From Pristiophorus japonicus (taxonomy: Eukaryota): 64,000 bases of DNA. The number at the start of each line of letters is the position of its first letter. Within the stretch, counting starts at the first letter, position 1. Made by a program: the position numbers and the translations under genes. The DNA lies in contig NC_091989.1 of NCBI RefSeq assembly GCF_044704955.1, positions 85,312,001-85,376,000 on the forward strand, in the 5' to 3' direction. The notes under the pieces are model-generated. The model was not told where the DNA came from. It worked only from the letters and a program-made list of their open reading frames with translations, and did not search any database. This document shows positions 1 through 56,181 of this stretch, piece by piece.

Positions 1-3000
1 ATCTTGTTGGCCCCGCATTTTCAGCCAGAGATCTTGCGGGATGAGGAGCCCGTGCCAGGCCGCTTGCTGCACATCATGGTTTGCCTGGGGGACGTGCCGC
101 TCCATTTCGTGAACGTGTACGCCCCTCAGCCCGGCCCGCAGCAAATGCGTTTTTTCGAAGAGGTGTCCGCTCTTCTTGGCTCCGTCAACGTCGGAGACTG
201 CATTGTCCTCGGGGGGGGATTTTAACTGCACCCTCGAGGCGAGGGACCGCTCCGGTGCCACGCAGAGCATGACGGCGATGGAGAAGTTGAGGGACCTGGT
301 CGTGTCCTTCGACTTGGTGGACGTCTGCCGAAATCTCCATCCCGACTCCAGCGCCTTTACTTGGGTGAGGCCTGGAGTAGGATGGTCCAGAATCGACCGC
401 CTTTACGTGTCTCAGTCATATGTTTCCCACGTCCAGGCGGCCTCCATTCGACCGGTGCCGTGTTTGGACCACCACCTGGTGTGGGCGGATCTCGCTTCGC
501 TCCATGCGAGGACGGGGTCTGCGTATTGGCATTTTAACAACCAGCTGCTGGAGGACTTGTGGTTCCAGGACTCGTTCCGTCGTTTCTGGGCAGACTGGAG
601 AAGGAAGCAGGGTGGCTTCCCCTCCTTGAGGCTATGATGTGGGCAAGGCTCACGTCCGCATCTTCTGTCAAGAGTATGCGAGGGGGTCGACCAAGAGGCG
701 GCCGGCCAGGGTCGGGCACCTAGAAAAAGAGGTGCTCGACCTGGAGTCTCGTCTCGGTCAAGTCTTCGAGGATCCAGCCCTGCGGATGGTGTACGAAGCG
801 AAGAAGGCCGAGCTGAAGGACCTGCAGCTCGTCGGTGCCGGGGCGCGTTCGTGAGGTCGCGGATCAGGTTCCTGCGGGATCTGGACCACGGCTCCCCTTT
901 CTTCTCCTCGCTGGAAAAAAGACAGAGTGTCCGTAAGCAGCTCTTGACGCTGCTGGCCGACGATGGCTCTCTCGTCTCGGATCCGGAGGGCGTCAACAAC
1001 AGGGCCAGTGAATATTATGGGGCTCTGTTCTCTCCGGAGCCATGCAGCGAGGAAGCGCATAGAGTTTTATGGGAGGATCTGCCGAAGGTCGGCCCGGAGA
1101 GCGCTGAAAATCTGGAAGCTTCGCTAAGCCTGGCGGAGCTGACCGGCGCCCTCGACTGGCTCTCGAGGGGAAAAGCCCCGAGGCTGGACGGGCTGACCAT
1201 GGAGTTCCACAGGGCATTCTGGTATGTCCTGGGGGGCGACTACGCGTGGATCCTGGGGGAAAGTCTGGCGACCGGGGAGATGCCCCTCTCTTGGCGCAGG
1301 GCAGTCATCGTCCTGCTGCCTAAGAAGCGCGATCTCCGCCTCCTTAAGAACTGGCGCCCGGTCTCACTCCTCAGCACGGACTACAAAATCTTCGCCAGGG
1401 CTATGTCTGCTCACCTTGGCGCCGTGCTGGACCACATGATCCACCCCGACCAGTACTTCACGGTCCCGGGCCGGACAATCCACGATAACATCCATCTGGT
1501 CCGGGACCTCACCCATCATTCCCAGGAGGCTGGTCTGTCGGTCGCCTTCCTATCTCTCGACCAAGAGAAGGGGTTCGACAGGGTGGATTACGACTATCTG
1601 TTCGGAACTCTGCGCGCTTTCGGGTTCGGGATGCATTTCGTCGCCCATATCCGACTTTTGTATGCCGCCGCGGAGTGTCTGATAAAGGTTAACGGATCCT
1701 TGACGGCGCCCCTTCGCTTTGGGAGAGGGGTGCGCCAGGGATGCCCCATGTCCGGCCAGTTACATGCTATCTGTGTGGAACCTTTCCTGCGCCTCCTGCG
1801 GACGAGGTTGACGGGACTGTCTCTGCAAGGGCCGGGCGTGGAGGACGTGCTCCTCGCGGTAGAGAATCCCGCTGACATGCGGAGGATGCATGAGTGCCAG
1901 GAGATTTACTCGGACGCATCCTCTGCCAGGATCAACTGGGAGAAATGTTCCGGACTCCTGGTGGGTCAGTGGCGGGTGGACTCCGTGCCGGAGGAGCTCA
2001 GGCCTTTTGCCTGGAGCACGACCCATCTCCTCTATCTGGGAGTCTACCTTAGCCCCGACGAGGAAGCCTGGCCGGCGAACTGGCAAGAGCTGGAGGCTAA
2101 GGTCGCCGCTCGCCTAGGGCGCTGGACAGGACTGCTCCGAGTGCTGTCCTACAGGGGTCGAGTGCAAGTCATAAACCAGCTGGTGGCCGCCATGTTGTGG
2201 TACCGGCTGGTCACTTTGACCCCTCCCCCTCCGTTTGTCACCAAGATACAGAAGAAGCTGGTGGACTTCTTCTGGAACAACAGGAAGCACTGGGTCTCTG
2301 CCACGGTCTTGAGACTCCCGCTTGGGGAGGGCGGTCAGTCGTTGGTGTGCGTCAGCACCACGCTCGTGACATTCCGTCTTCAGACCCTGCAGAGATACCT
2401 TTACGTCGAGCCCCCTCCTAGGTGGCGTGCTCTGGCGACGCATTTCTTCCGCCAGCAGCACGGCCTCAACTATGACACGCAGCTCCTGTTTGTGAGCTTG
2501 GGGGGCGTCAGGACCGCCTTCCAGGAGCTGCTTGTCTTTTACAAGGAACTCACCAGGGTCTTGAACAATGTCTCCACCAAGTGCATCTCTCCACCGGCTG
2601 CTCGGGAATCTGTACCTCCACGATCGAGGTTTTAGGTGGCGGTCGGACGAGAGGGCTGTGGCTGGTGAGGTGACCAGGGTCAGGGACACGCTCGATTGCG
2701 GAAGAGCGGGCTGGATGGCGCCAGACACGCTGGCGTGGCGCCTAAATTCCGCCAATGTCCGCCGCGCGGCCGATGCCATCGAGTCGCTAAAAACAGCTCT
2801 GGGCCCTCACGGCCAAGGGTGCCATCAGCCGATCCAGGCAGCGGGCGGTCGAGGGAGTCGTTCAACCTGACTGCCTGCCTCTCTTCCGTGCGTACATCCA
2901 CGCCAGGGTGCCCTTGATGATGGAGCACGCGGTGTCCACTGGTACGCTCGCGGCCTTCCGTGAGAGGTGGGTACCGGAGGGACTAGAGTGCATCATCACG

Positions 3001-3259
3001 CCCGGCAACCAAATTTTAATTTGATTTTATGTTTTAAAGTTTAATTTATTTTAATTGCCGGTGTTTTTACTGTCCCCTTCCCCTTTTAAAGGGGGCACTT
3101 GGAGAAAAAATGTGAGTTTAGTGCCCAAAAAAAAACTTGAAAAAAAACACAAATAAAACATAAAATACAAAAAAAAAGTGCCTTGTAAATGTTTGGTGCG
3201 TTCCCCAGTTTGCGGGGCCACGATTTAATGTTTTAGTTTCCTCCCAAAAGAGTTCTGTG
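1..3259 (+). mobile_element. Tx1-clade non-LTR retrotransposon, copy A (ORF2 plus 3' UTR; 5' part lies outside the window; disrupted)
   Basis: APE endonuclease motifs (NVYAP, GGDFNC, SRIDRLY, DHH, WHFN) and RT motifs (KNWRPVSLL, SLDQEKGFDRV, GVRQGCPMSG); C-terminus IITPGNQILI* ends at 3024; A-rich 3' UTR nearly identical to 11270-11502; stops, frameshifts and deletions relative to copy B. Confidence 0.93.
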
Positions 3260-4220
3260 GATCAATGGTGGAGCTTTGCAGGCGTGGCCTATTCAGTTGG
3301 AGCTGTGCTGCTGTGAGAGAAGGAACTCCCTGATTTGCTCCTGCCTGGGAGGCCAAGAGTGAACCCTGAGACCAGCCCAGGAAGAGGAAGAGGGGGCTGG
3401 CTTACTACAATTCAACGTCCAGAGGGAGAGGAGGACAGCAGAAAATTTATCAACTTATTACTACTACAGAGAGTTGGAGAGAGGGGGAGAACAACAACCT
3501 GAGAAAACACCATCCAGTGTGGAAGGAGGGAGAGCAATTTCTACAATCTTCGACAGGTGGGTGTGTTTTGGTGCATTCCCCGAAAGACTTTGTTGTATCG
3601 GTGGGGGGAGGAAAGAAGATAACTCGAGTGCCGGAACATTGCGGGTGTGTGTGTGTGTGGAAGTGTGTGTGGGGGTCTTGCTTACAGCTAGGCCCCACAC
3701 ACCACTGAAGCACCCCTCCCCCATTGCCTAGCCTGGGATAGCTGGAGCTACCTGGCTGAAGAATCATTAATTACCCTATTAAACATCGTTGGGAGAGTGT
3801 GCCTGGGTGGCTCCAGCTACCCCATGTGAAGACTTCTTCTCCCCCCACCCGAAGACCATCTACAAGGACTGTGTCTTGTTTCATTTTTTCCATCATCTGG
3901 GGAGTACACCCCAGAAAAACGCCCACCCATCGCTGTAAGGGGAGACGTGCCCTCGCAGCTTCCCTCTTTCCCACCCCACACTCTCTCTCTCTCTGCCACT
4001 CTCTCTGTCTCTCCCCTCTCTCTCTGAAAGTCCCTTTCCTCCTTAAATTAAAGTTAATTAAGACAACTGAGCAGAGGGAGCAAGGCCCCTCCCCATTCGT
4101 TAACTCGGGGAGAGGTGTGCCCCATTAAGAGCTCCCTCTGCTCAAAACACCAACGAGACCAATTAAAGATCATTAAGGCCTGTGACTTTAGGGTGGGTGT
4201 AGCCCTTAAAGGGACCCGTG

Positions 4221-7200
4221 ATGGCGACCCCATCCACGCCGGTGGCAGGGCCAGCTAAGACGTACGTGCAGGCGGCGTCCACATCCACGGCGCCTCCTGC
4301 TGCCCTGCCAGCATTCAGACTCATAACTAAAAAACACGGGGTCAAGAGCTACACTCACCCCACAATGAGCATCGAGGAGAGCGTGCGGGTGATGGCTGGG
4401 GTAGTCGGCCCCTCGGCCATTGTCGCGGCCTCCAAGATGTCTGGGAAGGCTGTATTCTTCCTGGGATCGGAGCGGGCGGTGTCCCTCGCCCTCGAAAAGG
4501 GGCTCACGGTGGGCGGGACATTCCTGCCGGTGGACACTCTCAAGGCCACTGCGCAGAGGGTCATCATTTCTAACGTTCCGCCCTTTGTTCCCGCTGGGCT
4601 CCTCCTCCCTCACCTACACCAACTGGGGGAGGTGAGGTCGGGGTTCAACCCCATACCCCTCAGCCTCTGGGAGAGCAGCCTGCGCCATGTCTTCTCCTTC
4701 CGCCGCCAGTTCTTTGTCCGGCTGGCGCGGGAGGAGACGACGGAGGGAAGTTTTAATGTGGTGCACGAGGGGACTGCCTACTGTGTCTTTTGGACGTCGG
4801 ACGGCGTGCGGTGCCTTGCCTGCAGGGAGGTGGGGCACGTTCGCAAGAACTGCCCAACCTCCAAGGCTGCCAAACCACCGAAGGTGGCCAAGGCTGGCAC
4901 CGCCACCAGCCCTCCCCCGATTTGTGTCCACGTGCCGGGAGCTGTAGGTGCGCGGGCATCGACGGGGGCCTTTGTTTTCACGGCCTCCGGCGGCGTGGGG
5001 GGAAAACGTCCGATCGGAAAGAAGGCGCGGAGGAAGGAGAAACATCTTGAGGTGGGTTCCCTCAGTGCGCCAGACAGTTTGATCACCGCGCTCAGCCCAA
5101 CCCTGTCACCGGCGAGCGCGGGGTGCCCTGAGCCCGTGCCCGATCCCTTGACCAATATCACAGTGCGGCTCGGGCATGGGCAAGAAAAGAAAAAGGGGGG
5201 GTGGAGCGGGAGGCCTCGGCAGACATGGAGGTCTCCCTGCCTCCGCGCACCCCCAGGAACAAAAGGAGGCGCCGCTCCAATGAGGCGGAGGAGGAATAAC
5301 ATCCCTCCGCGGAGGAGTCGGTGCCCGCCGCGTGTCCCGCGTCCCCTACCAGCGCCCCCAAACTGCGCTGTAGGGGAGGAGTCTGTCCCCGGGGAGGGTG
5401 AGACAGTCGAGGCTGCCCAGCCTCTGCTCCCGGGGATGGCGTGGAAGATCTGCCTGTCGTGGGGGGCGTGGGGCCAGCGGAGGAATGCGTAGCCACCGGG
5501 TCGAGCGTCCTGGGGACTGAGGCAAGCGGGGTCAAAAAGGCCGTACCTGAGCCCGCCCAGCCTTTATCCAACTTCCACCGTGATTTACTCGACTCGGCAG
5601 AAACTGAAAATGTTAATAATTTTACAGAACACGCTGGGCCGGGGGGTGGCGGCGGGGACGGGGAAGAACAACAACCCTCGCCCCCTACTTTGGAGCTGGG
5701 GATCCGACTTTTGTACGCCACCACGGAGTGTCTGATAAAGGTTAACGGCGCCCCTTCGCTTGGGGAGAGGGGTGCGCCAGGGATGCCCCATGTCCGGCCA
5801 GTTATATGCCATCTGCGTGGAGCCTTTCCTGCGGACGAGGTTGATGGGACTGGCTCTGCAAGGGCCGGGCGTGGAGGTTGTCCTCTCGGTTTACGCCGAT
5901 GATGTGCTCCTCACGGTGGAGGATCTTGCTGACCTGCGGACGATGCGTGAGTGCCAGGAGATTTACTCGGCCGCATCCTCTGCCAGGATCAACTGGGAGA
6001 AATGTTCTGGACTACTCGTGGGTCAGTGGCGGGTGGACTCCCTGCCGGAGGAGCTCAGGCCTTTTGCCTGGAGCATGACCCATCTCCTCTATCTGGGAGT
6101 CTACCTTAGCCCCGACAAGGAAGCCTGGCTGGCGAACTGGCAAGATTTGGAGGCCAAGGTCGCCGCTCGCCTAGGGCGCTGGACAGGACTGCTCCGAGTG
6201 CTGTCCTACAGGGGTCGAGCACTAGTCATAAAGCAGCTGGTGGCCGCCATGTTGTGGTACCGGCTGGTCACTTTGACCCCTCCCCCTGCGTTTGTCACCA
6301 AGATACAGAAGAAGCTGGTGGACTTCTTCTGGAACAACAGGAAGCACTGGGTCTCTGCCACAGTCTTGAGTCTCCCGATTGGGGAGGGCGCTCAGTCGTT
6401 GGTGTGCGTTAGCACCCAGCTCACGACCTTCCGTCTTCAGACCCTGCAGAGATACCTTTACCTCGAGCCCCCTCCTAGGTGGCGTGCCCTGGCGACGTAA
6501 TTCTTCCGCCAGCAGCACGGCCTCAAGTACGACATGCAGCTCCTGTTTGTGCGCTTGGGGGGCGTCAGGACCGCCTTCCAGGAGCTGCCTGTCTTTTACA
6601 AGGAACTCACCAGGGTCTGGAACAAAGTCTCCACCAAGCATAGCTCTCCACCGGCTGGAGTGGCGGCTGTCCTGCAGGAGCCGCTGCTCAGGAATCTGAA
6701 CCTCCACGACCGAGGTTTTAGGTGGTGGTCGGACGAGAGGGCTGTGGCTGGTGAGGTGACCAGGGTCAGGGACCTGATCGATGGTGGAGGAGTAGGCTGG
6801 ATGGCGCCAGACACGCTGTCGCAGCGCCTAAATTCCGCCAACGTCTGCCGCGCGGCCAATGCCATCCAAAGAGGAATCCCTTCCGCTGTCGTTTCCTGAC
6901 CCAGCACCGCTTTTAAAAGAGCCCAGTGGGGACTCCTCTGCCGACGATCCTGGGGGTGGGATCGGGGCAGAGTCAGGGTCGGATGGAGCGGCCGGGCCAT
7001 TTGCCGTACCTCGTGCGGTCGACGGGCCGGCTGCTGGTGGCGACCTCCCGGAGGGGGACGGGGACTCGGTGGGGGATGAGGGAGAAGATCTCGATTCCAT
7101 CGCCAGTGAGGCGGTGGATCTCCTCGTGCCCGCCGCTGAGTCCCCCCTCATTCCTTCAAAGGAACTCCGGGACTTTTTGGTCCAGAGCCAGGGTCGCCGC

Positions 7201-7407
7201 AACCGAGCCCATCTGGCCCTGGAAAGATGGTCCGAGCCTGGGCTGCTCGTCGCCTCCGTCCGCACCGCCGCTAAAACCATGGCCGCGGGCGGGCCCTTAT
7301 CAAAGGCGCAAGGCCTTGATCTGCGCCGGCTCAAAAGGTTCCTCGCTGGGCTGCTGAAGGAGTGGAGGTCAACAAACGACTCCACTCCCCCCGCCACAAT
7401 AAGTTAG
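4221..7407 (+). pseudogene. Tx1 ORF1 (gag-like zinc-knuckle protein), frameshifted and interrupted by an RT-derived insert at about 5701-6866
   Basis: IVAASKMSGKAVFFL, IISNVPPF, HVFSFRRQ; CCHC knuckle CLACREVGHVRKNC; C-terminal part resumes in ORF 6859..7407 (ELRDFL...ALERW). Confidence 0.85.
5701..6866 (+). repeat. Extra copy of the ORF2 RT segment inserted inside ORF1
   Basis: Aligns by eye to about 9235-10417 and 1649-2780 (IRLLY...GVRQGCPMSG...YADD...NSANV). Confidence 0.9.
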
Positions 7408-7432
7408 GTAGAGGTTGCACTATGCTTTTGTC

Positions 7433-10400
7433 ATGAAGATAACCAAAGCCAGCCTCAACATCAACGGCGGCAGAGAGGCACACCGTAGATTTAACAATTT
7501 TTCGCTCCAGCAGGAGGGGAAATATGTGGTGTGCTTCCTGCAAGAAACCCACACCGTTCCGGGAGATTAAGCCACGTGGCTCCTGGAATGGCAAGGAGAG
7601 GTCCGCATGAGCCACCTCACTACCACTTCTTCTGGGGTGGCCATCTTGTTGGCCCCGCATTATCAGCCGGAGATCATGGGGGTCGAGGAGCCCGTGCCAG
7701 GCCGCTTGCTGCACGTCACGTACGCCCCTCAGCCTGGCCCACAGCAAACGCGCTTCTTCGAAGAGGTGTCCGCTCTTCTTGGCTCCGTCGATGTCGGCGA
7801 CTGCATTGTCCTCGGGGGTGGATTTTAACTGCACCCTCGAGGGGAGGGACCGCTCCGGTGCCCCGCAGAGCATGACGGCGATGGAGAAGTTGAGGGACCT
7901 GGTCGGGTCCTTCGACTTGGTGGACGTCTGGCGAAATCTTCATCCCGACTCCAGCGCCTTTACTTGGGTGAGGCCTGGAGTAGGATGGTCCAGAACCGAC
8001 CGCCTTTACGTGTCTCGGGCGTACGTTTCCTGCGTCCCGGCGGCCTCCATGCGGCCGGTGCCGTGTTCGGACCACCACCTGGTGTGAGTGGAGCTCGCTT
8101 CGCTCTGCGCGAGGACGGGGTCCGCGTACTGGCATTTTTACAACCAGCTGCTGGAGGACGTGCGGTTCCAGGACTCGTTCCGTCGTTTCTAGGCCGACTG
8201 GAGAAGGAAGCAGGGGGGCTTCCCCGCCTTGAGGCTATGGTGGGACGGGGGCAAGGCTCACGTCCGCGTCTTCTGTCAAGAGTATGCGATGTGGTCGACC
8301 AAGAGGCGGGCGGCCATGGTCGGCCGCCTAGAAAAAGAGGTGCTCAACCTGGAGTCCCATCTCGGTCAAGTCGTCGAGGACCCGACCCTGCGAATGGTGT
8401 ACGAAGCGAAGAAGGCCGCGCTGAAGGACCTGCAGCTCGTTGGGTCCTGAGACGCGTTCGTGAGGTCACGGATACGGTTCCTGCGGGATCTGGACCGCGG
8501 CTGCCCTTTCTTCTACTCGCTGGAAAAACACAGTGTCCGTAAGCAGCTCTTGACGCTGCTGGCCCACGAAGGCTCTCCCGTCTCGGATCCGGAGGGCTTC
8601 AACAACAGGGCCCGTGAATATTACGGGGCTCTGTTCTCTCTGGAGCCATCCAGCGAGGAAGTGCATAGAGTTTTGTGGGAGGACCTGCCGAAGATTGGCT
8701 CAGAGGGCGCCGAAAATCTGGAAGCTCCGCGAAGCATGGCGGAGCTGACCGGCGCCCTCGACCGGCTCTCGAGGGGAAAGGCCCCGGGGCTGGACGGGCT
8801 GAACGTGGAGTTCCACAGGGCGTTCTGAGACGTCCTGGGGGATGACTATGCGTGGGTCCTGGGGGAAAGTCTGCCAACCGGGGAGATGGCCCTCTCTTGG
8901 CGCAGGGCATTCATCGTCCTGCTGCCTAAGAAGGGCGATCTCCGCCTCCTTAAGAACTGGCGCCCGGTCTCCCTCCTCAGCACGGACTACAAAATCTTCG
9001 CCAGGGCGATGTCTGCTCGACTTGGCGCCGTGCTGGACCACATGATCCACCCCGACCTGTCCTACACGGTCCCGGGCTGGACAATCCATGATAACATCCA
9101 TCTGGTCCGGGACCTCATCTATCATTCCCAGGAGGCTGTTCTATCGGTCGCCTTCCTATCTCTCGACCAAGAGAAGGCGTTCGACAGGGTGGATCACGAC
9201 TACCTGTTCAGAACTCTGTGCATTTCGTCGCCCGGATCCGACTTTTGTACGCCGCCGCGGAGTGTCTGATAAAGGTTAACGGGTCCTTGACGGTGCCCCT
9301 TTGCTTTAGGAGAGGGGTGCGCCAGGGATGCCCCATGTCCGGCCAGTTATATGCCATCTGCATGGAGCCTTTCCTGCGCCTCCTGCAGATGAGGTTGACG
9401 GGACTGGCTCTGCAAGGGCCGGGCGTGGAGGTCGTCCTCTCGGCTTACGCCGATGACGTGTTCCTCGTGGTAGAGGATCCCGCTGACCTGCGGAGGATGC
9501 GTGAATGCCAGTAGATTTACTCGGCCGCATCCTCCACCAGGATCAACTGGGAGAAATGTTCCGGACTCCTGGTGGGTCAGTGGCGGGTGGACGCCCTGCC
9601 GGAGGAGCTCAGGCCTTTTGCCTGGAGCACGACCCATCTCCTCTATCTGGGAGTCTACCTTAGCCCCGACGAGGAAGTCTGGCCGGCGAACTGGCAAGAG
9701 CTGGAGGCCAAGGTCGCCGCTCGTCTAGGGCGCTGGACAGGACTGCTCCGAGTGCTGTCCTACAGTGGTCGAGCGCTAGTCATAAACCAGCTGGTGGCCG
9801 CCATGTTGTGGTACCGGCTGGTCACTTTGACCCCTCCCCCTGCGTTTGTCACCAAGATACAGAAGAAGCTGGTGGACTTCTTGAACAACAGGAAGCACTG
9901 GGTCTCTGCCGTAGTCTTGAGTCTCCCGCTTGGGGAGGGCGGTCAGTCATTGGTGTGTGTCTGCACCCAGCTCGCGACTTTCCGTCTTCAGACCATGCAG
10001 AGATACCTTTACATCAAGCCCCCTCCTAGGTGGCATGCTCTGGCGACGTAATTGTTCCACCAGCAGCACGGGCTCAACTATGACACGCAGTTCCTGTTTG
10101 TGAGCTTGGTGGGCGTCAGAACCGCCTTCCAGGAGCTGCCTGTCTTTTACAAGGAACTGAACAGGGTCTGGAACAAAGTCTCCACCAAGCGCAGCTCTCC
10201 ACCGGCTGGAGTGGCGGCTGTCCTGCAGGAGCCGCTGCTCGGGAATCTGTACCTCCACGACCGAGGTTTTAGGTGGTGATCGGACGAGAGGGCTGTGGCT
10301 GGTGAGGTGACCAGGGTCAGGGACCTGCTCGATGGCTGAGGAGCGAGCTGGATGGCGCCAGACACGCTGGCGCGGTGCCTAAATTCCGCCAACGTCCGCC

Positions 10401-11269
10401 GCACGGCCGATGCCATCGAGTCGCTAAAAACAGCTCTGGGCCCTGACTCCGTTCGGTGCATCAAGGAGGCTCAAGCACGTGGGGAGATTCCGTCCGAACT
10501 TACCTCCGTCCGGACGGAATTCCTCATCGGCGCCAAACCCCGGAACCACCCTTGGGAGCTGGCGCCTCACAACTTGAGCCCCCTCGAGGAAATCCCCTCC
10601 GTGCCTTTTAGTTCCACGCAGAGGGGTTTCCTGTACGGGCTGCTCCTGCACACTCTCAACTTTGCCATCCTCGCCTGCCGTGCGGACACGCCATGGCGTA
10701 CCATCTTGCCATCCGGAGGAGGCGGGGGTCCCCGATGGAGGGCACTCTACACGGGAGTCCTCCCAGTATTTATCGGAGACTTGGCCTGGAGGGTGGTGCA
10801 CGGAGCAGTCCCATGCAATACATTTTTATGCCGGTTCACGGGCTCCCAGGCCGCCTGCAATTTCTGCGGTCTGGAAGAGTCTGTGTTCCATGTTTTTACC
10901 GAATGCACGAGGTTGCAGCCCCTGTTTTATTATTTAAAGGGGCTGCTCCTGAAATTCTGGCTGCACTTCAGTCCTACACTCCTGATCTTTGGGCACCCTG
11001 TGCGGAGGGGAGCGGGTAGGTCCGAGGGCCTCCTCGTAGGACTGCTCCTGGGCATGACTAAGGGTGCCATCAGCCGGTCCAGGCAGCGGGCGGTCGAGGG
11101 GGTCGTTCAGCCTGACTGCCTGCCTCTCTTCCGTGCATACATCTGCGCCAGGGTATCCTTGGAGATGGAGCATGCGGTGTTCACCGGTACGCTCGTGGCC
11201 TTCCGCGAGAGGTGGGCGCCGGAGGGACTGGAGTGCATCGTCACCCCCAGCAACCAAATTTTAATTTGA
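7433..11269 (+). pseudogene. Tx1 ORF2 (APE endonuclease - reverse transcriptase - CCHC zinc finger) with several stops and frameshifts
   Basis: MKITKASLNING...FLQETH; SDHH; SAYADD; CNFCGLEESVFHVFTEC; premature stops e.g. at 7568, 8085, 8448, 8826. Confidence 0.9.
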
Positions 11270-11496
11270 TTTCATGTTTTAAAGTTTATTTGTTTTATTT
11301 GCCGGTGTTTTTAGTGTCCCCCTCCCCTTTTATAGGGGTCACTTGGAGGAAAAAATAGGATTTAGTGCCCAAAAAAAAATTTAAAAAAAAAAAACCCAAA
11401 AAAACTCAAAAAAGGGCCTTGTAAATGTTTGATGCATCCCCCAGATCGGCGGTGGGGGGAGCACGATTTAATATTTTAGTTTCCTCCCAAAAGAGT

Positions 11497-12570: not shown

Positions 12571-13733
12571 TTCTTTAGACAAAGCTGGCATGGAGTAGTT
12601 GGGCCGAATGGTCTGCTTCTGTGGTCTACATCCTAGGTTGCTACATGCAGGGTTTCTAAAAATGTAACAAACATAAAATCTGTTCTATCATGTCAACAGG
12701 TTTAAGTAATAAATGAAAGATTATGAAATGTTAACACTTTTTTGAAATATTTAATTTGGGATTCGATAATATTCAAAGCAATTATAAACTTCATATTCAA
12801 AGGTGATTGTAGGCATATGCACCAAATAATCAGTATGATTTTGGGATCGACTTGCGAGGTACAGGTTGAAAGTGACAATCTTTAAAAATATAAACGGGCA
12901 TTTTGGTGAATAACTGTGTACAACAATTATTAACGGAATTGGCCACTGTCACTGCACTTTAGGTGGCTGTATATTTTGAATAATGTCGCCAATGTTTTAA
13001 TTTGTATGTGTTTAGTTAGAGGAAAGTTAATGCCTTCATTCAGTGACTGAATGCAGAACATAGATTACATGAGATAGAACTGCCTTATTTTCTAACAGTC
13101 ATGTTACCAGTAGTCACTTCCGCTGGTGTCTATAACAATTGATCCTTAACAATTGGTGATGCAATAATTGATATCGGTAGTTATTTAACTTCAAGTGTGG
13201 TGCTTTATATACCTGACAGCATGGCCAAAACATTATGAATCCCGCTATAAAATCGCAGTTTTGTACATCTTTTAATTGAAAACTGGAGTTAACTCAGTTT
13301 GAGACCATGGAATATGCGACAGTAAAATGTAATAAACATAATCAAGGCGATAATTGAAAAGAATAAGAGGTGAGAATCGACTGGATTATTCAAGGAAAAT
13401 GTGGTAAGTATGGCAGTTTGTGACTGATGTAACATTACTTTGTTAAACAACATATTTGAACAGCATTTTCTTTCTGAAGTGTTACAGTTGACATTTGCGT
13501 TCCACAGAATTGAACAATGTTATCCTTTACTTATGAATTTATATTTCTAAAAAGCATCACGGTACCCATAACGATAACGTTCAAAACCACAGATCTGTGT
13601 TGCTCCTTGAAGTGCCAAATACAAATAGAATAGCTATGGGTAACAGGTATGCAAATAAGTATACGCCTCGGATGTCATAGAAACATGCCATCGATGTATA
13701 GCAGTAAATTATCTGCTGCATTGATAACTAACA

Positions 13734-13910
13734 TTAGCGGAACCTGATTTTTGTACAGATACCCTCTACTGCTGCACCTCTTTGGGTTGTTGTCCGAAGT
13801 TGAGCATACTCTGTGTTCTTGTCCTTAAGTTTGAGCTTTCCCGCGTTCTTGGAGCCACTGATTTCGAGAACGGCATACGTTAGCTTGTTATCAGCTCTCG
13901 CTTGCTTGCT
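13734..13910 (-). CDS. Gene A exon 7 (last coding exon): cytoplasmic tail with ITIM LTYAVL and ITSM-like TEYAQL
   Basis: Acceptor ttgactccacag|AGC, phase 0; SKQARADNKLTYAVLEISGSKNAGKLKLKDKNTEYAQLRTTTQRGAAVEGICTKIRFR*. Confidence 0.8.
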   Translation of the reverse strand, partial: SKQARADNKLTYAVLEISGSKNAGKLKLKDKNTEYAQLRTTTQRGAAVEGICTKIRFR

Positions 13911-14097
13911 CTGTGGAGTCAACGTTTGGAAATATCGTCAGCTCGTTGTTTTTATCTGTGTGCACTAACAAGGCCCATTAGAAAATAACATTTCTTTTTA
14001 AATGACACATGTGAGTGCGACCACATTTATTGCAGTGCACCTTGAACCTTAATTCTACAGGGGTCATATATGTCTCTGCTGAGTTTTTCAGCCGTAC

Positions 14098-14199
14098 CTG
14101 CGCGTAAACTGTCCGTTCCTCTGTGCGTATAACTATTGCAGTGAAGTTGGAACTGGTAAAATCTAAGGCGGCTTAAGGCGCTTGGGCATCCGTTGCTCC
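14098..14199 (-). CDS. Gene A exon 6: cytoplasmic phase 0-0 exon with an in-frame TAA at the expected Tyr (AP*AAL) and TVYAQ
   Basis: Acceptor ttttgcatttcatgaag|GGA; donor CAG|gtacgg; 102 nt; GATDAQAP*AALDFTSSNFTAIVIRTEERTVYAQ. Confidence 0.65.
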
Positions 14200-14867
14200 C
14201 TTCATGAAATGCAAAACATCAGATTATGGTTGTTCTATTCTAAGTAGAATACGAAATTGAATGAAGAAAGAACATAATATTGATGTCTTTTTCCCAGGTT
14301 CAGGAAAATTATCTCATAACTAGGTCTCAAATAAAACTGCTTCACACTCCTCAATTGTGTTTGTGTAGATCACACTTATTGAACTCATTGTCTCACTATT
14401 TTTGTTCAAGGCGTTGAAACTTGCTGTGAACTGACTGTTGGCCGCCTCTCATACTTCACGAAGCGGCCATTCTTTACATGTGAGCTCAGATAGTGATTGA
14501 ATAGGAGATTCCACCAGGGAAGACAACCCAGCTCACTCCTTACATGTGCTCACGGTAAGTGCATTCACACTCACAGAATTTACTGCTGTCAGGAACTGAT
14601 CTCTTCCTTACTGGCCCTAGACTGTCGATTGAACTGCAAAGTGCATGTATTTTGAAGAACATTTGCGATGTTTCCACTAGTCTCCATTACAACTGCCATC
14701 TTCATTACAAGGGTTTAACATTTGTGTGATAACATGCGGTAAATTATATTGAAACATGAAAGATATGGGTACGAAATGGAGTTAGAGTGTAATTACATGA
14801 TTATAGAGCGACGAAGTACTTTCTTCCTTATTTGAAATGTTTCCGGGAGTGATGGTTTTAAACTTAC

Positions 14868-14911
14868 CCGCTCTTCATGATGGTCTGAACTCTCCGCAGA
14901 GCTCCCTGCTC
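14868..14911 (-). CDS. Gene A exon 5: short juxtamembrane cytoplasmic exon
   Basis: Acceptor tttattcctag|GA; donor CGG|gtaagt; 44 nt, phase 1 to phase 0; (G)AGSSAESSDHHEER. Confidence 0.7.
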
Positions 14912-15452
14912 CTAGGAATAAATGAAATTAGTAATCCTCCGTGAAAATATGCATTCCATTTTTTTTCAATTTTTAAAGGCATTCCGGTAGATTTTGTTAA
15001 AAGTTGAGATTGTAATTTGGAAAATCAAACTCCTGCAGTATACAGAATCTGAAAGTGAATTGAGTAGTCCAGCAGTAATCTTAATCTACCGGGGAAATTC
15101 CATTAAAAAAAAAAGGTGGTGAAAATCGGAAGGTGTCATATAGGGCAGCCAGTTTTACACACAGTTGAGAATCTACTCCTTCGTGTTTGAAGCTCGGCCG
15201 CCCACAGACTTACATTTCACAAAATGCAGCTCCAACCAAAGCGATTGGGCTGCAATTATGGCACCACGATGCAAAATGTAAAGGTAAATCCATTAATTAT
15301 ATGAAGAACTAGATTTATCGTAGTAAATTCATTAACATGCTCAGGATCCTAACAATATATAGCTGTTAGCTGATGATCGATTTATTAACCTGTTACTTGG
15401 TCGTGCCCACTCTCTATCTAAAATGAAGTGAACACACTGGCATATTTCTTAC

Positions 15453-15566
15453 CTCTCCTTGCCTTAAGGTATAGCCGAATTCCAATGATGATAACCAGCA
15501 ACAGAAATATAAATCCACCCACCATACATCCATAAATGAGTATGTGGTTGAAAGTATTGTTATCTC
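15453..15566 (-). CDS. Gene A exon 4: transmembrane exon
   Basis: Acceptor ttacctggcag|GA; donor G|gtaaga; 114 nt; (G)DNNTFNHILIYGCMVGGFIFLLLVIIIGIRLYLKARR, a hydrophobic helix followed by a basic stop-transfer stretch. Confidence 0.85.
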
Positions 15567-16309
15567 CTGCCAGGTAATATAAAAACGCAAGAATAACTTT
15601 TACATATGGATATTGTTCTTCAATCAGATGATTTTATGACTAAAGCAATACGTTTCATCAGTGCTGTAATGACATGGTGTGCATCTGCAATATTGTGCAT
15701 TTCTGTCTGCAGCTTTCTATATGATCAAATGTTCACCTCCAAACTCGTTCCACAGAAAGTCCCAAAGATCAGTGGCTTGGGATTAGAAAGTAAGATTACA
15801 TCCCGGGGATAATGAGGTTGATGCAAATACATTAAATAATATTAGAAAGTAAAATCGCATAAGGCGGAGACAAGCACTAAAAAAATTGAATATTAAAATG
15901 TGACAATCATCCTTCTGCAACCATCAGGCTGAATTTCACAATGCATGCCATCAAAAGATTGATAAACGCGGATATTGTAACAGTTTTTGGAAATAAATTG
16001 CTTTATTTGTACAGTTTCTACTTTGTAAGTATAGTAGACTTATGCCATATTTTAATGACATAATACAGTATTATCAAATTACACATCACAGTCGATTTAT
16101 GCTCCGTGTGAATTCAAAATAAACCAGTGAGTGAATACACGCACCTTGGCGCTCACTCCCATTCGCTGGGAGTTCGGTCATGACTGCGTGTCTACACGAG
16201 AGGTTTACCTCTGGTGCGAATTGAATTGGCTTCCTACTGATGCTAAACTGGCGTAAATGAACTTATTTGTCTACAGTTCATTGTGTTCGTGAGAATGCCG
16301 GAACATTAC

Positions 16310-16618
16310 CTATGTTCGATATCGGATCAATGAATGCCTCACTGGCTGGAGCCGGGAGTGTCAGGTGAGAAACTTGACAAGTATAAACAGCCCCGATTCG
16401 GTCTTGCTGTGTTTCCTTCAACAGGCTGGAAACTTGATACAGTCCGTTCATGTTCAACGTTGTGCTTGTCTCTATGCCGATCGAAATCTCAATTCCATCT
16501 TTAAACCAAGTGAGGTTGAGAGTCTCCGGGTAAAATTCAACCGTTTTGCACACGAGATACAGAGCAGTGGAGTTTAATTCATATACTTCCGAGAAAATCA
16601 TCAGTGGAGTTGGCGGAA
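16310..16618 (-). CDS. Gene A exon 3: Ig C1-set domain
   Basis: Acceptor tttttctacag|TT; donor G|gtaatg; 309 nt, phase 1-1; LVCKTVEFYPETLNLTWFKDG...GLYQVSSLL...YTCQVSHLTL (C1 signatures FYP, W-x-K-D-G, Y-x-C-x-V-x-H). Confidence 0.92.
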
Positions 16619-18031
16619 CTGTAGAAAAAAAAACCTAGGTAAGAAATACAACTTGGAACATTATACTCTTTAGTTTACGAAGTATCTTCTCATCATCTGG
16701 TGCCCTTAAACACGATGTAATTAATATATCTTCGTGTTGAATGACTGCCGCGAAATTTAATGCAATACATCAAAATTAATTAACCAAAATATTTCGTAAA
16801 TAGTACAATGTTTTACTCCTATGTGTGTTTCTAGCAATATACTCTAGGGCTATGGAGAAAGAGCAGGTGATTGGTACTAATCTGATAGCTCTTTCAAAAA
16901 GTAGGTGCAAGCAGGATAGGCAAAATGTATGCAGTATAACTTTGAGTAGGATTTTCTTCAATAAACCATCAATTCAAATGTTATAATACGTCAGCAACAT
17001 AGGTCAGTATTTAATAGAACGAAACACCTTGCGCAGCAAACCTCACATTCTAATCCTGCCTAAAAGTTATCCTGTCCCTCTCCAAAAAATCGATTTATAT
17101 TTCCTACTAAACAACCCCAGTTTTGTATTATTTACAAAGTTTTGGTGAAAGGTCCAAATTCTTATTCGGCAATATTGTTTTTTTTTAAAAGTGTAGAGTT
17201 TGCTTTTGTAGAATTTGTAACACGTCATCATCTAAGACTTGCGATTTGTAGAATGCTAAAATAAGTATGCTAAAACAAAACATTCTAGACCATATGCTAT
17301 TGTTTAATATGTTTCAACTTGAGCAAGTGCGGGTCACCTGGATATTGCTGTGTTCATCCCGAGACATAACACGTGAATATCGAACTCATATTATGGATGC
17401 TGCATTGGAAGTCACATTAAGAAATCATAATTTGAGCGCTAGGTGTGTTTTTGAAATCAGTTTAAATGCAGACATCATATTTGATTTATAGATTTAAAGA
17501 AACGAGGCAATGCAGCACTATCGTTACAGAATTTGTCACCGGTGTTTTTCATCAAAATCTCAGTAATTCAGCATATATTACTGCAGGACAGAGGCACAAT
17601 TGTCCAATTTTTTACAATATTTTTACATCAATTTGGAAAGAGCTATGGAAACTATTGGTGTTCAAATCAATTATGAGCAGATGTCAGTACTGTTTAGGGT
17701 GCATTAAATAAATCAGGGCGCACCAATGTAAAAGCTGGAGAAACGTTTTAAAATGAATATAGCAATGCTATTAACCTGAGTTTGGAGCAAACTTCTTTCA
17801 CAATTTGTCAGCAGTCAAGTTAGCCAATCAAACCATGATAGCGGTGAGTATATAACATAAAATAAATACTACTATACATAGATCAAGGGGACACTTCAGT
17901 GAAACTATGCGTTACCATTACGTAGCATGGATTGAATTAGCAGTTTGGTGAACAATTTTTAGTTTAATATTCTCACAAGAACAACACACATCACTCTGTT
18001 GCAAGTCATCTGGATCCACAGTGTAACTTAC

Positions 18032-18352
18032 CGGAGACAGAGATCGTTGAGCCTGTTCCATTTACAATACTGCCTCCCAGGATTCTCACTCCACAGTAAT
18101 AGACTCCAGAGTCCCACGCACTGATATTTAGGATATGAAAGGCGGCTCCTCCTTGTTTATAAAGGAGAAATATTTTCCTGCTGTCGGAGGCTGTTTGCAG
18201 AAAGTTAGTTTCGCCAAGTTTCCACCAACAAACACTCACATCTGAGTTATCTTGAAAAATAGGGAATGTGCAATAGAAGGTGATGTTTGAAAGAATGAGC
18301 ACGATCGTGCTTTCAGGAGCTTGGGAGACTTGGAACTGAGCCTCAATAGCAA
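18032..18352 (-). CDS. Gene A exon 2: Ig V-set domain with a J-like G strand
   Basis: Acceptor cctgacag|TT; donor G|gtaagt; 321 nt, phase 1-1; VSQAP...ITFYC...CWWK...DSGVYYCGV...NGTGSTISVS. Confidence 0.92.
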
Positions 18353-18476
18353 CTGTCAGGAAACATAACCGTAATTTTAAGTAAAACTTAAAGTAGGAAT
18401 GAGGGATATACAAGTAACAGGATATAAAATGAGGGAGAGGAAAAGAAGAGAAACCCAGAAAAATAGCAGAAAATAC

Positions 18477-18531
18477 CTGTGCAAATAATCCCGAGGACGC
18501 ATATGACCAGAAATGCAGAGTGCACAGCCAT
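18477..18531 (-). CDS. Gene A exon 1: signal peptide of a SIRP-like VJ-C1 receptor
   Basis: ATG at 18531; MAVHSAFLVICVLGIICT; phase-1 donor ACAG|gtattt; 124-nt intron to the V exon. Confidence 0.82.
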
Positions 18532-18964
18532 ATTGAACAGGCAATCGTCCCCTTTGCTGCGAATAACCACGGTTCTTTGGAAAAAAAATTGTTTGCACAT
18601 AATGTCAGAAAATAACACCCAATATGAAAAGACAGAATTGGAGCTGGAAAATGATGCACTGATTGAAGTGCGGAGGGTTACTTTCCCCGAAGCTCCATTC
18701 GGTCGGAAGTGCACCAGCTATTCAATTCCAACTACACAGTAACTCCGCAGCAAATCCACGTGACTTACCAGGTCAGAATTATATATTTAATGAGTAGTGT
18801 GCATCCGCTGGAAATAGTTCAGCTCTTGGGTGCAATTGAATACGAGGGCGAAAACTGGATGGTGTTGCAGGAATTAATATGCTGTCAAAATCAAAGATGA
18901 AGTCGCATCAGAAGAAGCATCGGCGACTAAATGTAAAGTGATATCATTAGCAACAAGTTAGCTT

Positions 18965-19250
18965 TAAAAGGAAAAATACTGCAGATTCTGGAAATCTGAA
19001 AAAAACAGGACATTTTGGAAATGCTCCGCAGGTCAGGCAGCATTTGATGAGAGAGAAACTGATTTATGGTTCCAGGTCGATGATCTTTAATCAGAACTCG
19101 ACAAGTTAGAAATGTAATAGCTTTTAAACAATTGCAGGGGCAGGGAAAAGGTGGCGGGAAGGAACTAACAAAAGTGAAGTGTTGTAATAGGTTGGAAGAC
19201 AAAAAGGATTAAATAACAAGGGATGATGGTACAAGGCAAAGGTGCGTGGT
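18965..19250 (-). mobile_element. Penelope-like terminal-repeat fragment
   Basis: Matches the reverse complement of 34148-34255 (gcaggtcaggcagcat...gagaaactga). Confidence 0.55.
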
Positions 19251-19499
19251 AATTGACAAATAGAGAAATAAAACTTGGGCAACTTTATTTGCAAAATCAA
19301 AATGCTCTGTTTGGATCAACTTGATAAAATGGGTTGATTGCTGATTGGTTCCTTTGGGGAATTCGATACACCCAGCAGCAAAGTGTAATTCGAGGCATTA
19401 TGACTGCCGACTCCAAACAGACAGTGCTCACTTGAACCACAGCTTATATTCGTGGTTTAAGACCTTCTCTCAACCCAAAAAAATATTCCTGCCCCCACA

Positions 19500-19695
19500 G
19501 CCCAATTGCTTGACCTGCCCAGCTGCACCCCGCAAGTTTCTGACCTCAACCCAAAATTTCTATCATTCCCCTCAAATAATTCCGACCAGCCCGCTACTCT
19601 AGTTTCTGACCTCCTCCCAAGTTTCTGACCTCTCGCACCATACCCCCACCGCCCGCCCAAGTGCCTGACCTTCGCCCCGCCACGTTTCTCACCTT
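19500..19695. repeat. Degenerate short tandem repeat, core caagtttctgacct
   Basis: About 6 irregularly spaced copies in a C-rich context. Confidence 0.55.
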
Positions 19696-19779
19696 CTCGC
19701 CCTGCCATAGTTCAACCCACATGGATTTATAACCTTCTCCTCCTAAAATGTTCCTGATCTTACACTTGCAAGAACCGAA

Positions 19780-20170
19780 TCCCTCTTCCCAGAATTCCCT
19801 CCCTCTCTCCCTTCCGAACCCATCTCCCCAGTCACTCTCTCTGCCAACACTCTCTTTCCCCCAAATTTTTCCCTCGCCCAGTTTCTCTCTTTCCCCCAGA
19901 GCCTTTTTCCCCCGTCTCTCTCTCCACCATTCTCGCTCCCCTCCTCCTTATCTGTCTCCCCATTCTCCCTTGCTGCCTCAGTCTCTCTCTCTCTATCTAT
20001 CGCCAGTGTATTTCTCTCCCCCAGTGTCTTTCTCTGCCCCGTCTCTCTGTCTGTCTCCCCCAGTATCTTTCTCTCCCTCAGTCTATTTCTTCCTTACTTC
20101 CCCCATTCTTTATCTCTCTCTCTGCCACCTCCCCAGTCAAACTTACTCCCACAGTCTCTCTCGCTCGCAA
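19780..20170. repeat. CT-rich low-complexity polypyrimidine tract
   Basis: tctctctc and ttctctcccc runs. Confidence 0.8.
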
Positions 20171-53698: not shown

Positions 53699-53750
53699 AT
53701 GTTGCTGAGAATGTTGGCAATTGCTGTGCTGCTGCGGATTATCTGCATTG
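53699..53750 (+). CDS. Gene B leader exon
   Basis: MLLRMLAIAVLLRIICI, then G|gtatgt; the IIC ending is shared with the gene A leader. Confidence 0.75.
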
Positions 53751-53892
53751 GTATGTATGATTTATGTACTCGAATCACTCCCATAAAAAGTATGTGTAAA
53801 GCAGCATTCATTTCTACAATGTATTTTCTTTCATATTGCTCCATCCTCTGAAGTTGGTAATACGATTAATACAAATCTAATTTTTTTATCAG

Positions 53893-54213
53893 CAACCATT
53901 GATAGTTCGTTCAGTGTGTCCCAGGTCCCCGAAAGGATGATTTCGATCAGAGGTTCGAACGCCAGCTTCATGTGGAACTTTCCCTTATCCCAGGACAACA
54001 CCCCTGCAAACGTACATTGATGGAAAGGGGGTGAGAATCAATACCTTCATATAAAGTCAGATGACAGAAAGCGATTCTCTCTCCAAAGTAAAGGAGCTGG
54101 ATTCTTCCAACTGCTGAATGTGAGATTTCAGGATTCGGGGGTTTATTACTGCACAGTCATCCGTCAGGGAAGAAGAAGTGATAATGGAAGTGGATCATAT
54201 TTAACTGTCAGTG
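53893..54213 (+). pseudogene. Gene B V exon: B-strand Cys codon is TGG (53973) and C-strand Trp codon is TGA (54018)
   Basis: 321 nt, the same length as the gene A V exon; FSVSQVP...NASFMWNFP...NVH*WK...DSGVYYCTV...NGSGSYLTVS. Confidence 0.88.
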
Positions 54214-54929
54214 GTAGGTGTGAACACGGAGAAAAATAGACCATTACTATTGTATATGTATATAAATGCATCGCATATTTGTCACGGTTTATGTATCTGT
54301 CATATACAACCATGTTTAAAGGCGACTAAAGCTGTATGGAACATATTTTCAGGCTTTAACATGTTTCCGCTTGAGCTATTTGACATTCGATGGATGTGGA
54401 TTTTAGTCAACGATTATGGACACACGTAATATAAGCGAGCAGAAGGTTACTTCAAGGGGTTTGTGAAGATTAGGAGTGGAATGAAAAGGTACATTTTGAG
54501 TGAGAAAGCATCTGCTGTCTCTTAAAATCGAGAGTGCTCAGGAATATCCATGCATTCATTTTGATAGAAGGTTTTTTTTTCCAGAAGCATCTATCTGTTC
54601 TTTTGCTTCAGCGAGACCCTCAGCAAATCACGCACATTTCTGCTGCCTCTGAAGAAAAACTAATATCGCAGTGTAATTATTTAATGGTTTCTCATTCGCA
54701 GCAGTTATTCACAACTATTCCATTCGATTGTGTTAAATCTGTAGAGCATGCAATGCACAGCGACCCATTATAAAACGAGAGGGTCCAATCAGTTTTTGAC
54801 ATGGCAACATGAAAAAAAATTCCGATTTTCAATATAGTCCAAGTAAGTCAATTAACACAAAGCAAAATCGTGTTTAAATCGACTAACCTAGTCCGGTAAT
54901 ATTATTTTACTACATTTTCTGCTCTGCAG

Positions 54930-55244
54930 CCTCGCCTACTCCATTAAAAATTTTCTCAATGGATAGTGGAAAAGATTATTCTGCGCTGCGGACACTCGTG
55001 TGTCGAACAGCAGGATTTTATCCAGAGAATCTCACCATCACTTGGTATAAAAATGGTATCGAAACTTCAACTGGAATAAACACCACCAAACGGTGGAATA
55101 GACAGGAGGGGGTGTATGAAGCTTCGAGCTATTTGCAAGAGTTACAACTAGTCCGAAATTTGAGTGTTTATACTTGTCTCGTGTCGCACGTCTCTCTCCG
55201 GACTCCAGCCAAAGCGATCCATAAGGTTATTGCATATTACAGAG
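54930..55244 (+). CDS. Gene B C1-set exon (open frame)
   Basis: ctctgcag|CC...AGAG|gtaaat; LVCRTAGFYPENLTITWYKNG...YTCLVSHVSL. Confidence 0.88.
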
Positions 55245-56068: not shown

Positions 56069-56181
56069 GCACTAATCATATAGCCAACTATTTATTGATT
56101 TCTGGATGCACAGGGACTGCATTGCTATTCCTTTCGGTGATAATCATTGTGTTATGCTGTACAACTCAAAGGATAGCTTAA
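56069..56181 (+). CDS. Gene B transmembrane exon ending in a stop
   Basis: ttttgcag|GC; (G)TNHIANYLLISGCTGTALLFLSVIIIVLCCTTQRIA*; no charged residue in the helix. Confidence 0.75.

What the first reader, a model, noticed from the sequence alone, without database searches (positions are those of the whole stretch)
13734..18531. Gene A has the four-tyrosine tail plan of SIRP-alpha on a two-domain ectodomain
Seen: exons 6 and 7 look like duplicates, each with a YAxL-type position followed about 23 residues later by TxYAQ (AP*AAL...TVYAQ; LTYAVL...TEYAQL). All splice phases are compatible: 373 aa if the stop were Tyr, 339 aa without exon 6. Known: human SIRP-alpha has ITYADL...TEYASI...LTYADL...SEYASV, which recruit SHP-1/2. 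Inference: an inhibitory receptor whose tail arose by exon duplication.
Basis: partly seen in the sequence, partly recalled or inferred. Interest (0 to 1): 0.7.

Follow-up and report, generated by a model that had tools for sequence, protein, structure and literature searches.

The report
Shark inhibitory receptor, dead tail exon
This shark gene encodes an antibody-like surface receptor that likely acts as an immune-cell brake through two tail tyrosines, not four: the extra tail exon is a real family module but carries a stop codon here and is missing from the gene models of the same gene in three other sharks, so the gene is an ordinary member of a little-studied shark receptor family that resembles SIRP-alpha without being shown to be one.

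Summary
The exons, splice phases and lengths (373/339 aa) are right, but gene A does not have a four-tyrosine tail. Exon 6 carries TAA at the first tyrosine. Including it gives 289 aa with no tail tyrosine, with the stop 75 nt before the last junction. The orthologue clade is 100/100, and 5 of 5 tail-bearing orthologue models from three sharks join exon 5 straight to exon 7. The likely product is a 339-aa V-C1-TM receptor with LTYAVL and TEYAQL 23 residues apart. Exon 6 is still a genuine decayed copy of the family's inner tail module: 27 of 113 family proteins carry two or more modules, and the module is broken in 5 of 8 genes examined here. The gene belongs to a clustered cartilaginous-fish family that also has Arg-transmembrane, tailless members. 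SIRP membership is not shown: there is one C1 domain, the V domains form their own clade (though a joint clade is not rejected, p=0.275), and SIRP-locus markers lie on other contigs. No RNA was available. This scan has reported the family before on other DNA.

The parts
18477..18531 (-). Exon 1, signal peptide (ATG at 18531), phase 1
   Evidence: aligns with orthologue leaders
18032..18352 (-). Exon 2, V-type Ig domain with germline J-like end (NGTGSTISV); one extra Cys just before the C-strand WW where orthologues have Tyr
   Evidence: (67-79% identity to four orthologues)
16310..16618 (-). Exon 3, single C1-set domain (FYP, 13 residues between Cys and Trp, CxVxH)
   Evidence: hallmarks from PMC2785349 passages
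15453..15566 (-). Exon 4, stalk and uncharged transmembrane segment
   Evidence: orthologue model has one helix at residues 231-265
14868..14911 (-). Exon 5, short cytoplasmic linker, phase 1 to 0
   Evidence: matches the linker in orthologue P0002
14098..14199 (-). 'Exon 6': decayed inner two-tyrosine tail module (likely pseudo-exon); TAA at 14175-14173 in place of the first Tyr, AAG acceptor, GT donor kept
   Evidence: absent from orthologue models
13734..13910 (-). Last coding exon: LTYAVL (ITIM consensus) and TEYAQL (ITSM-like) 23 residues apart, then stop
   Evidence: conserved in orthologues P0002-P0004

Best explanation
Gene A is a six-exon member of the cartilaginous-fish V-C1 receptor family whose likely product is the 339-aa form that skips the stop-broken exon 6 and likely inhibits immune-cell activation through two tail tyrosines. 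Shown from sequence and calls: leader, one V domain with a germline J-like end, one C1 domain, an uncharged transmembrane segment, a linker exon, and a last exon with LTYAVL and TEYAQL; exon 6 is homologous to the family's inner tail exon and carries a stop at its first tyrosine. Inferred from orthologue models: exon 5 is spliced to exon 7. Inferred from general ITIM biology (recalled; for SIRP-alpha stated in PMC2785349): when the V domain meets an unknown ligand, a Src-family kinase would phosphorylate both tyrosines, and the pair would engage the tandem SH2 domains of SHP-1/SHP-2 to damp signals, including those from Arg-transmembrane siblings. Any transcript that includes exon 6 would end after 289 aa without tail tyrosines and is predicted to be removed by nonsense-mediated decay.
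For: Gene A groups with P0001-P0004 at 100/100. 5 of 5 tail-bearing models in that clade (Heptranchias 2, Scyliorhinus torazame 2, Mustelus 1; the full-length ones are 336-339 aa) lack the exon 6 module. Exon 6 scores 16-21 bits against the module profile, versus 24-47 for the other inner modules detected in this genome, including ones in broken genes. Its DNA identity to paralogue inner exons (0.55-0.63) is no higher than that of the neighbouring intron (0.58-0.64; shuffled baseline about 0.55), and pN/pS is 0.51-0.90 versus 0.37-0.52 for exon 7. It has the only AAG acceptor of the six. The stop lies 75 nt before the last junction (the 50-55 nt decay rule is recalled). Family context: 39 V-exon matches, all on contig C13. 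10 of 113 family proteins have an Arg transmembrane segment and no module, and one such gene lies in the same cluster (L072).
Against: No transcript of this gene was seen. The orthologue proteins are machine models whose RNA support I could not view. Exon 6 keeps its length, frame, donor and TVYAQ, which is more than long neutral decay might leave, and paralogue-to-paralogue inner exons also show high pN/pS (0.55-0.83), so that test separates poorly on about 33 codons. Motif conservation is imperfect: Mustelus has His at the second tyrosine and Heptranchias has Phe at Y+3 of the first. The fourth orthologue model (Heterodontus P0001) has an Arg transmembrane segment and no tail, and its N-terminus looks spurious. 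Ligand and phosphatase binding are untested.
Confidence: 0.72

Rival explanations
1. The stop is an assembly error or a minor null allele, and the usual product is the 373-aa four-tyrosine form proposed by the first reader.
For: Exon 6 has intact frame, length and AG/GT ends. Two-module tails are common in the family (20 of 113 proteins have two modules, 7 have more). TAA is one base from a Tyr codon.
Against: 0 of 5 tail-bearing orthologue models include the module. The exon is decayed apart from the stop: basic spacer lost, AAG acceptor, lowest profile score. The spliced motif would read TVYAQS.
Confidence: 0.08
2. Exon 6 is kept as a regulated poison exon, or as a way to make a tailless 289-aa decoy, which would tune how much inhibitory receptor reaches the surface.
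For: Splice sites and frame are retained, and the stop sits 75 nt upstream of the last junction. An AATAAA lies at 14031, just past the exon 6 donor.
Against: There is no conservation signal above the flanking intron. About one AATAAA is expected by chance in 1 kb of this AT-rich DNA (my estimate). Paralogues lose the same exon by splice-site loss as well as by stops, which looks like ordinary decay.
Confidence: 0.07
3. The whole of gene A is a young pseudogene or under relaxed selection in this species, like several of its neighbours.
For: Neighbours are broken: gene B, the L014/L015 gene (C1 frameshift), L045/L046 and L048 (stops). Gene A's end branch (0.24) is longer than those of Heptranchias (0.11) and Heterodontus (0.087), and it has an extra Cys in V.
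Against: All six used exons are open, with canonical splice sites, both Ig disulfide pairs and both last-exon motifs. The Mustelus and Scyliorhinus branches are as long (0.22, 0.31).
Confidence: 0.1
4. The family is the cartilaginous-fish branch of SIRP, so gene A would be a CD47-type self sensor that lacks one C1 domain. This concerns ancestry and can hold together with the best explanation.
For: V(J-like) plus true C1-set plus ITIM tail is the SIRP plan (PMC2785349 passages). The shark module profile scores SIRP tails higher (lungfish 20.5 bits, bird 12-14, bat 11-12) than turtle multi-V tails (2-4) or CD22-like tails (below 0). A clade of shark family plus SIRP V domains is not rejected (p-AU 0.275). 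SIRP-alpha is third among PDB sequence hits. Gene A's C1 exon is the fourth-best hit to a coelacanth SIRP-like protein in this genome.
Against: In the free V tree the 15 shark rows form their own clade (95/86), away from the SIRP rows. V identity to SIRPs is 24-27%. SEP-domain and syntaphilin genes, recalled as neighbours of tetrapod SIRP, map to C12 and C1, not C13. There is one C1 domain rather than two.
Confidence: 0.25

Closest known systems
Machine-annotated shark orthologues: XP_067853500.1/XP_067853499.1 (Heptranchias), XP_072322906.1 (Scyliorhinus torazame), XP_078066431.1 (Mustelus), XP_067905015.1 (Heterodontus)
   Same: Same gene by tree (100/100); V 67-79% identical; same leader-V-C1-TM-linker-last exon layout and length in the first three species.
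   Different: They bear borrowed names (Ig lambda-like, class II-like, tapasin-related). None of the models shows the exon 6 module, and the Heterodontus model ends in an Arg transmembrane segment.
SIRP-alpha (SHPS-1) and the SIRP paired-receptor family
   Same: V domain with J-like end, C1-set domain, neutral transmembrane segment, ITIM-type tail with tyrosine pairs 23-26 apart; clustered family with inhibitory and activating members (PMC3716694 passage).
   Different: SIRP has V-C1-C1 and four tyrosines, all with hydrophobic Y+3; gene A has V-C1 and two. The shark four-tyrosine relatives build the tail from separate phase-0 exons, and the inner module usually ends in TVYAQT. CD47 binding is unknown.
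Non-rearranging VJ-C1 genes: PRARP, UrIg, NKp30
   Same: Germline-joined VJ-like exon, with C1 in PRARP and UrIg (PMC10751288 passages). PRARP has an inhibitory or switch motif (recalled; paper not seen).
   Different: UrIg and NKp30 are MHC-linked. Exons I read as NKp30-like, class I-like and UrIg-like lie on C19 (labels are my reading, not database names), while this family is on C13. No PRARP sequence was in hand to compare.
Chicken CHIR genes with ITIM pseudo-exons
   Same: Clustered paired receptors in which tail exons survive as pseudo-exons (PMC1458963 passages).
   Different: In CHIR the loss accompanies a switch to activating receptors. Here only the inner module is lost, and the receptor keeps a neutral transmembrane segment and one motif pair.

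Membership tests
SIRP-alpha / SIRP family | Ectodomain V-C1-C1 | tested here: not met
   One V and one C1 exon only; profile scan of the window found no further Ig exon within the gene; orthologues also V-C1.
SIRP-alpha / SIRP family | True C1-set domain (FYP, 13 residues Cys to Trp, CxVxH) | tested here: met
   criteria from PMC2785349.
SIRP-alpha / SIRP family | Four tail tyrosine motifs, each with hydrophobic Y+3 | tested here: not met
   Two in the 339-aa form; first position of exon 6 is a stop, second would read TVYAQS; compared with SIRP tails.
SIRP-alpha / SIRP family | V domain groups with SIRP V domains | tested here: inconclusive
   Separate clade in the free tree; joint clade not rejected, p-AU 0.275; 42 rows, 133 columns, no PRARP, TCR or light-chain V among the outgroups.
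SIRP-alpha / SIRP family | Synteny with NSFL1C and SNPH (marker choice recalled) | tested here: not met
   SEP-domain and syntaphilin matches on C12 and C1 only; gene on C13. Only two markers rang, the opioid-precursor search was blank, and genes can move.
SIRP-alpha / SIRP family | Binds CD47 | not testable with these tools
   CD47 was not located in the genome, so no partner was available.
SIRP-alpha / SIRP family | Recruits SHP-1/SHP-2 | not testable with these tools
   Motif consensus only.
Cartilaginous-fish V-C1 paired receptor family | Homologous V and C1 domains | tested here: met
   64 of 65 hits with E 2e-28 or better, all with source names from sharks, rays or chimaera; the 65th is a teleost protein at 2e-5; nested in the family tree.
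Cartilaginous-fish V-C1 paired receptor family | Tail of phase-0 two-tyrosine modules with neutral transmembrane segment | tested here: met
   Exon 7 49-54 bits, exon 6 16-21 bits; no charged residue in the segment.
Cartilaginous-fish V-C1 paired receptor family | Clustered with Arg-transmembrane, short-tail siblings | tested here: met
   39 V matches on C13; Arg-type exon at L072:4953-5060, about 0.76 Mb away.
Rearranging antigen receptors (Ig/TCR) | Separate V and J segments with recombination signals | tested here: not met
   V exon ends in a J-like stretch and a splice donor; no match to one recombination-signal pattern in 13001-20000.
PRARP | Orthology by sequence and synteny | not tested

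The most novel reading that the evidence does not exclude
Shark V-C1 receptors are the cartilaginous-fish sister group of SIRP and tune their inhibitory strength by gaining and killing a whole two-tyrosine exon. In this genome 5 of 8 examined inner modules were lost through different lesions (stop at the tyrosine, other stops, donor loss, acceptor loss), and gene A's copy could survive as a poison exon.
Probability: 0.15. Interest if true: 0.62.

Novelty: new member of a known kind. Interest (0 to 1): 0.3.

Why it matters
It corrects the claim: the four-tyrosine plan belongs to some siblings (for example P0007, and probably the gene at L019/L020 in this genome), not to gene A. The gene is a conserved one-to-one orthologue across sharks in a large paired-receptor family that databases label only with borrowed names and that my eight literature searches did not find described. 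Paired one-module and two-module receptors give a direct test of whether module number sets inhibitory strength, and of whether SIRP-type self sensing predates bony vertebrates.

Tried and rejected
RNA: no RNA holder was listed for window 13500-18700, so no reads could be laid; this is not evidence either way. DNA search for a second copy of the exon 6 region found only the window itself. DNA-level duplication of inner versus last exon was not detectable in any of 8 genes (best: 33 of 300 shuffles as high), so the duplication is old or saturated. An Arg-type transmembrane exon inside gene A (suggested by Heterodontus P0001) was sought by tblastn and profile and not found. CD47: the transmembrane family search was blank; the V-set_CD47 search gave two weak hits (E about 0.03), of which I read one, and it looked like a B7/butyrophilin-type V exon (label recalled). 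No complex was folded because no partner was found. Local synteny: in 400 kb of flank, the top 150 of 461 candidate frames gave only retroelement families in Pfam. Opioid-precursor search blank. First structure prediction failed on a 3-row alignment (pLDDT 35). The second, for orthologue P0002 with 78 rows, gave pLDDT 79.5 with a disordered tail; its fold search returned a tie of Ig folds (top Z 15.7, B7-H6 complex entry) with no SIRP among the 50 rows, which does not exclude SIRP. Literature searches found no description of the family. The elephant shark genome supplement has 0 hits for SIRP, ITIM or CD47. Ohta 2019 and Flajnik 2023 were not held and could describe these genes; subscription papers were not searched. 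Exon 6 as an alternative last exon was considered: reading through its donor would restore TVYAQV, but only behind the stop, so it cannot be expressed from this sequence.
Full report
Observation. Pfam finds an Ig/V-type domain and a C1-set domain. The C1 domain has FYP, 13 residues between Cys and Trp, and CxVxH, the hallmarks given in PMC2785349 (abstract and passages read). The point that decides the title is that the first tyrosine position of exon 6 is TAA (14175-14173). With exon 6 the protein ends at 289 aa, with the stop 75 nt before the last junction. Without it there are two motifs, LTYAVL and TEYAQL, 23 residues apart.

Source. The window is G000:C13:85312001-85376000 in a 5.9-Gb genome. 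All close relatives are from sharks. A UniRef protein labelled Pristiophorus japonicus (P0044) has the same last exon as paralogue L007, so the genome is probably of that species.

Orthologues. The V exon retrieved four proteins at 67-79% identity, with two more models in their clusters. In a 58-row V+C1 tree, gene A and P0001-P0004 form a clade at 100/100 (one short row, P0064, was dropped, and P0005/P0006 were not included). Five of the six models have an inhibitory-type tail, and all five run from the exon 5 linker directly into the exon 7 homologue. The sixth (Heterodontus P0001) ends in an Arg-bearing transmembrane segment and has an N-terminus that looks retroelement-derived (my reading). 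These are machine models; I could not see their RNA support. Against perfect conservation, Mustelus has His at the second tyrosine and Heptranchias has Phe at Y+3 of the first.

What exon 6 is. The alignment search returned 65 proteins, 64 of them with source names from sharks, rays or chimaera. Their tails are built of a repeated unit, YxxL followed about 23 residues later by TxYxx. Among 113 family proteins (isoforms and fragments included; 47 unnamed ones picked by eye), 51 have no module, 35 one, 20 two and 7 three or more. P0048 and P0113 carry near-exact repeats, direct evidence of exon duplication in the family. A profile of 31 modules finds exon 6 at 16-21 bits and exon 7 at 49-54 bits, and nothing at 12 bits or more in 400 kb of flank. 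Paralogues in this genome carry the same segment 148-215 nt before their last exon. It has the gene's only AAG acceptor, has lost the basic spacer, and is no more similar to paralogue exons than the next intron is. The pN/pS contrast with exon 7 (0.51-0.90 versus 0.37-0.52) points the same way but is weak, because paralogue pairs give 0.55-0.83. Of 8 genes examined here the inner module is open with both splice sites in 3 (L004, L005, L010; the L004 and L010 genes have lesions elsewhere) and broken in 5: gene A (stop), L003 (donor), L006 (stop and donor), L008 (no AG at the homologous place), L011 (stop). A ninth, L009, looks frameshifted and was not counted. Exons 6 and 7 are not detectably alike as DNA, so the duplication is old.

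Family and pairing. There are 39 V-exon matches, all on C13, in blocks near 85-86 and 98-111 Mb (a lower bound), and one tail match on C6. Ten of the 113 proteins have an Arg transmembrane segment and no module, and such an exon lies in the same cluster (L072). This is the layout of paired receptors as described for CHIR and SIRP (PMC1458963 and PMC3716694, passages read). The model of orthologue P0002 shows two Ig domains, one membrane helix and a disordered tail.

Mechanism. Shown: anatomy, motifs, the lesion, orthology. Inferred: skipping of exon 6; surface expression on leukocytes; tyrosine phosphorylation and SHP-1/SHP-2 recruitment (general knowledge; stated for SIRP-alpha in PMC2785349); decay of exon 6-containing transcripts (rule recalled). 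No RNA run was listed.

SIRP or not. It likely works like an ITIM-bearing paired receptor such as SIRP-alpha, but membership is not shown. Not met: two C1 domains, four hydrophobic-ended motifs, and linkage to two recalled SIRP neighbours. In the family, splicing usually leaves the inner second tyrosine without a hydrophobic Y+3 (11 of 34 have I/V/L versus 41 of 52 last modules; pattern count), unlike the bat, bird and lungfish SIRP tails. Open: the V tree separates the shark rows (95/86) from SIRP, but the joint clade is not rejected, and SIRP tails score better on the shark module profile than other ITIM tails do. A coelacanth SIRP-like query found no better V-C1-C1 candidate among 122 scored of 925 candidates; its top hits read as B7-H6-like and antibody-type constant exons (labels mine). 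CD47 was not located.

Literature and prior notes. Eight searches found no paper describing the family. PMC10751288 and PMC11599192 (passages) discuss non-rearranging VJ and VJ-C1 genes but not this cluster in the passages seen. PMC3964593 was searched only in its supplement. Ohta 2019 and Flajnik 2023 were not held, and Fu 2019 is recalled. This scan has already reported the family in this genome and in other sharks, including the modular tail; those notes agree but are not independent support.

Verdict. A real, ordinary member of an under-described shark receptor family. The four-tyrosine claim fails for this gene; the repeated loss of the inner tail exon is the one detail worth keeping. Interest 0.3.

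Noticed in passing
window 53699-56160 (+): Gene B, a paralogue that looks dead: leader at 53699, V exon with the first Cys replaced by Trp and an in-frame TGA, intact C1 (54935-55231), transmembrane exon with no GT donor at the expected place, and no tail module found downstream.
   Followed up: partly
window 1-11330 (+): GC-rich block of nested, broken non-LTR retrotransposon copies (reverse-transcriptase frames and an ORF1-like frame at 4203-5492; Tx1/L1-like by my recollection), ending in an A-rich tail.
   Followed up: no
L019/L020 (G000:C13:104352001-104364000): Best candidate in this genome for a true four-tyrosine member: open V, C1, transmembrane exon and both modules; its linker exon and leader were not pinned down.
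   Followed up: partly
L072:331-5060 (G000:C13:86.09 Mb): Family gene with an Arg in the transmembrane segment and an immediate stop, a likely activating sibling in the same cluster.
   Followed up: partly
L006 / L031 (G000:C6:29.505 Mb): A lone tail of the family on another chromosome, inner module broken; no V or C1 exon found in the next 28 kb upstream.
   Followed up: partly
P0001 (Heterodontus orthologue model): The orthologue model ends in an Arg-type transmembrane segment instead of the inhibitory tail; either a switch of sign within one orthologue group or a chimeric model.
   Followed up: partly
P0055, P0087, P0090, P0143: A subfamily with a Cys-rich juxtamembrane region and a basic tail with a CxxC pair and no tyrosine module.
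   Followed up: no
L052-L091 (flanks of the 85-86 Mb cluster): Flanks are rich in LTR/retroviral-type fragments (integrase, reverse transcriptase, one env-family match at L059) and long fully repetitive stretches (L064-L066, L083-L091); no host gene was found in the frames scanned.
   Followed up: no
L092 (G000:C13:21.83 Mb): V exon that weakly matches the CD47 V-set profile but reads like a B7/butyrophilin-type domain (label recalled).
   Followed up: partly
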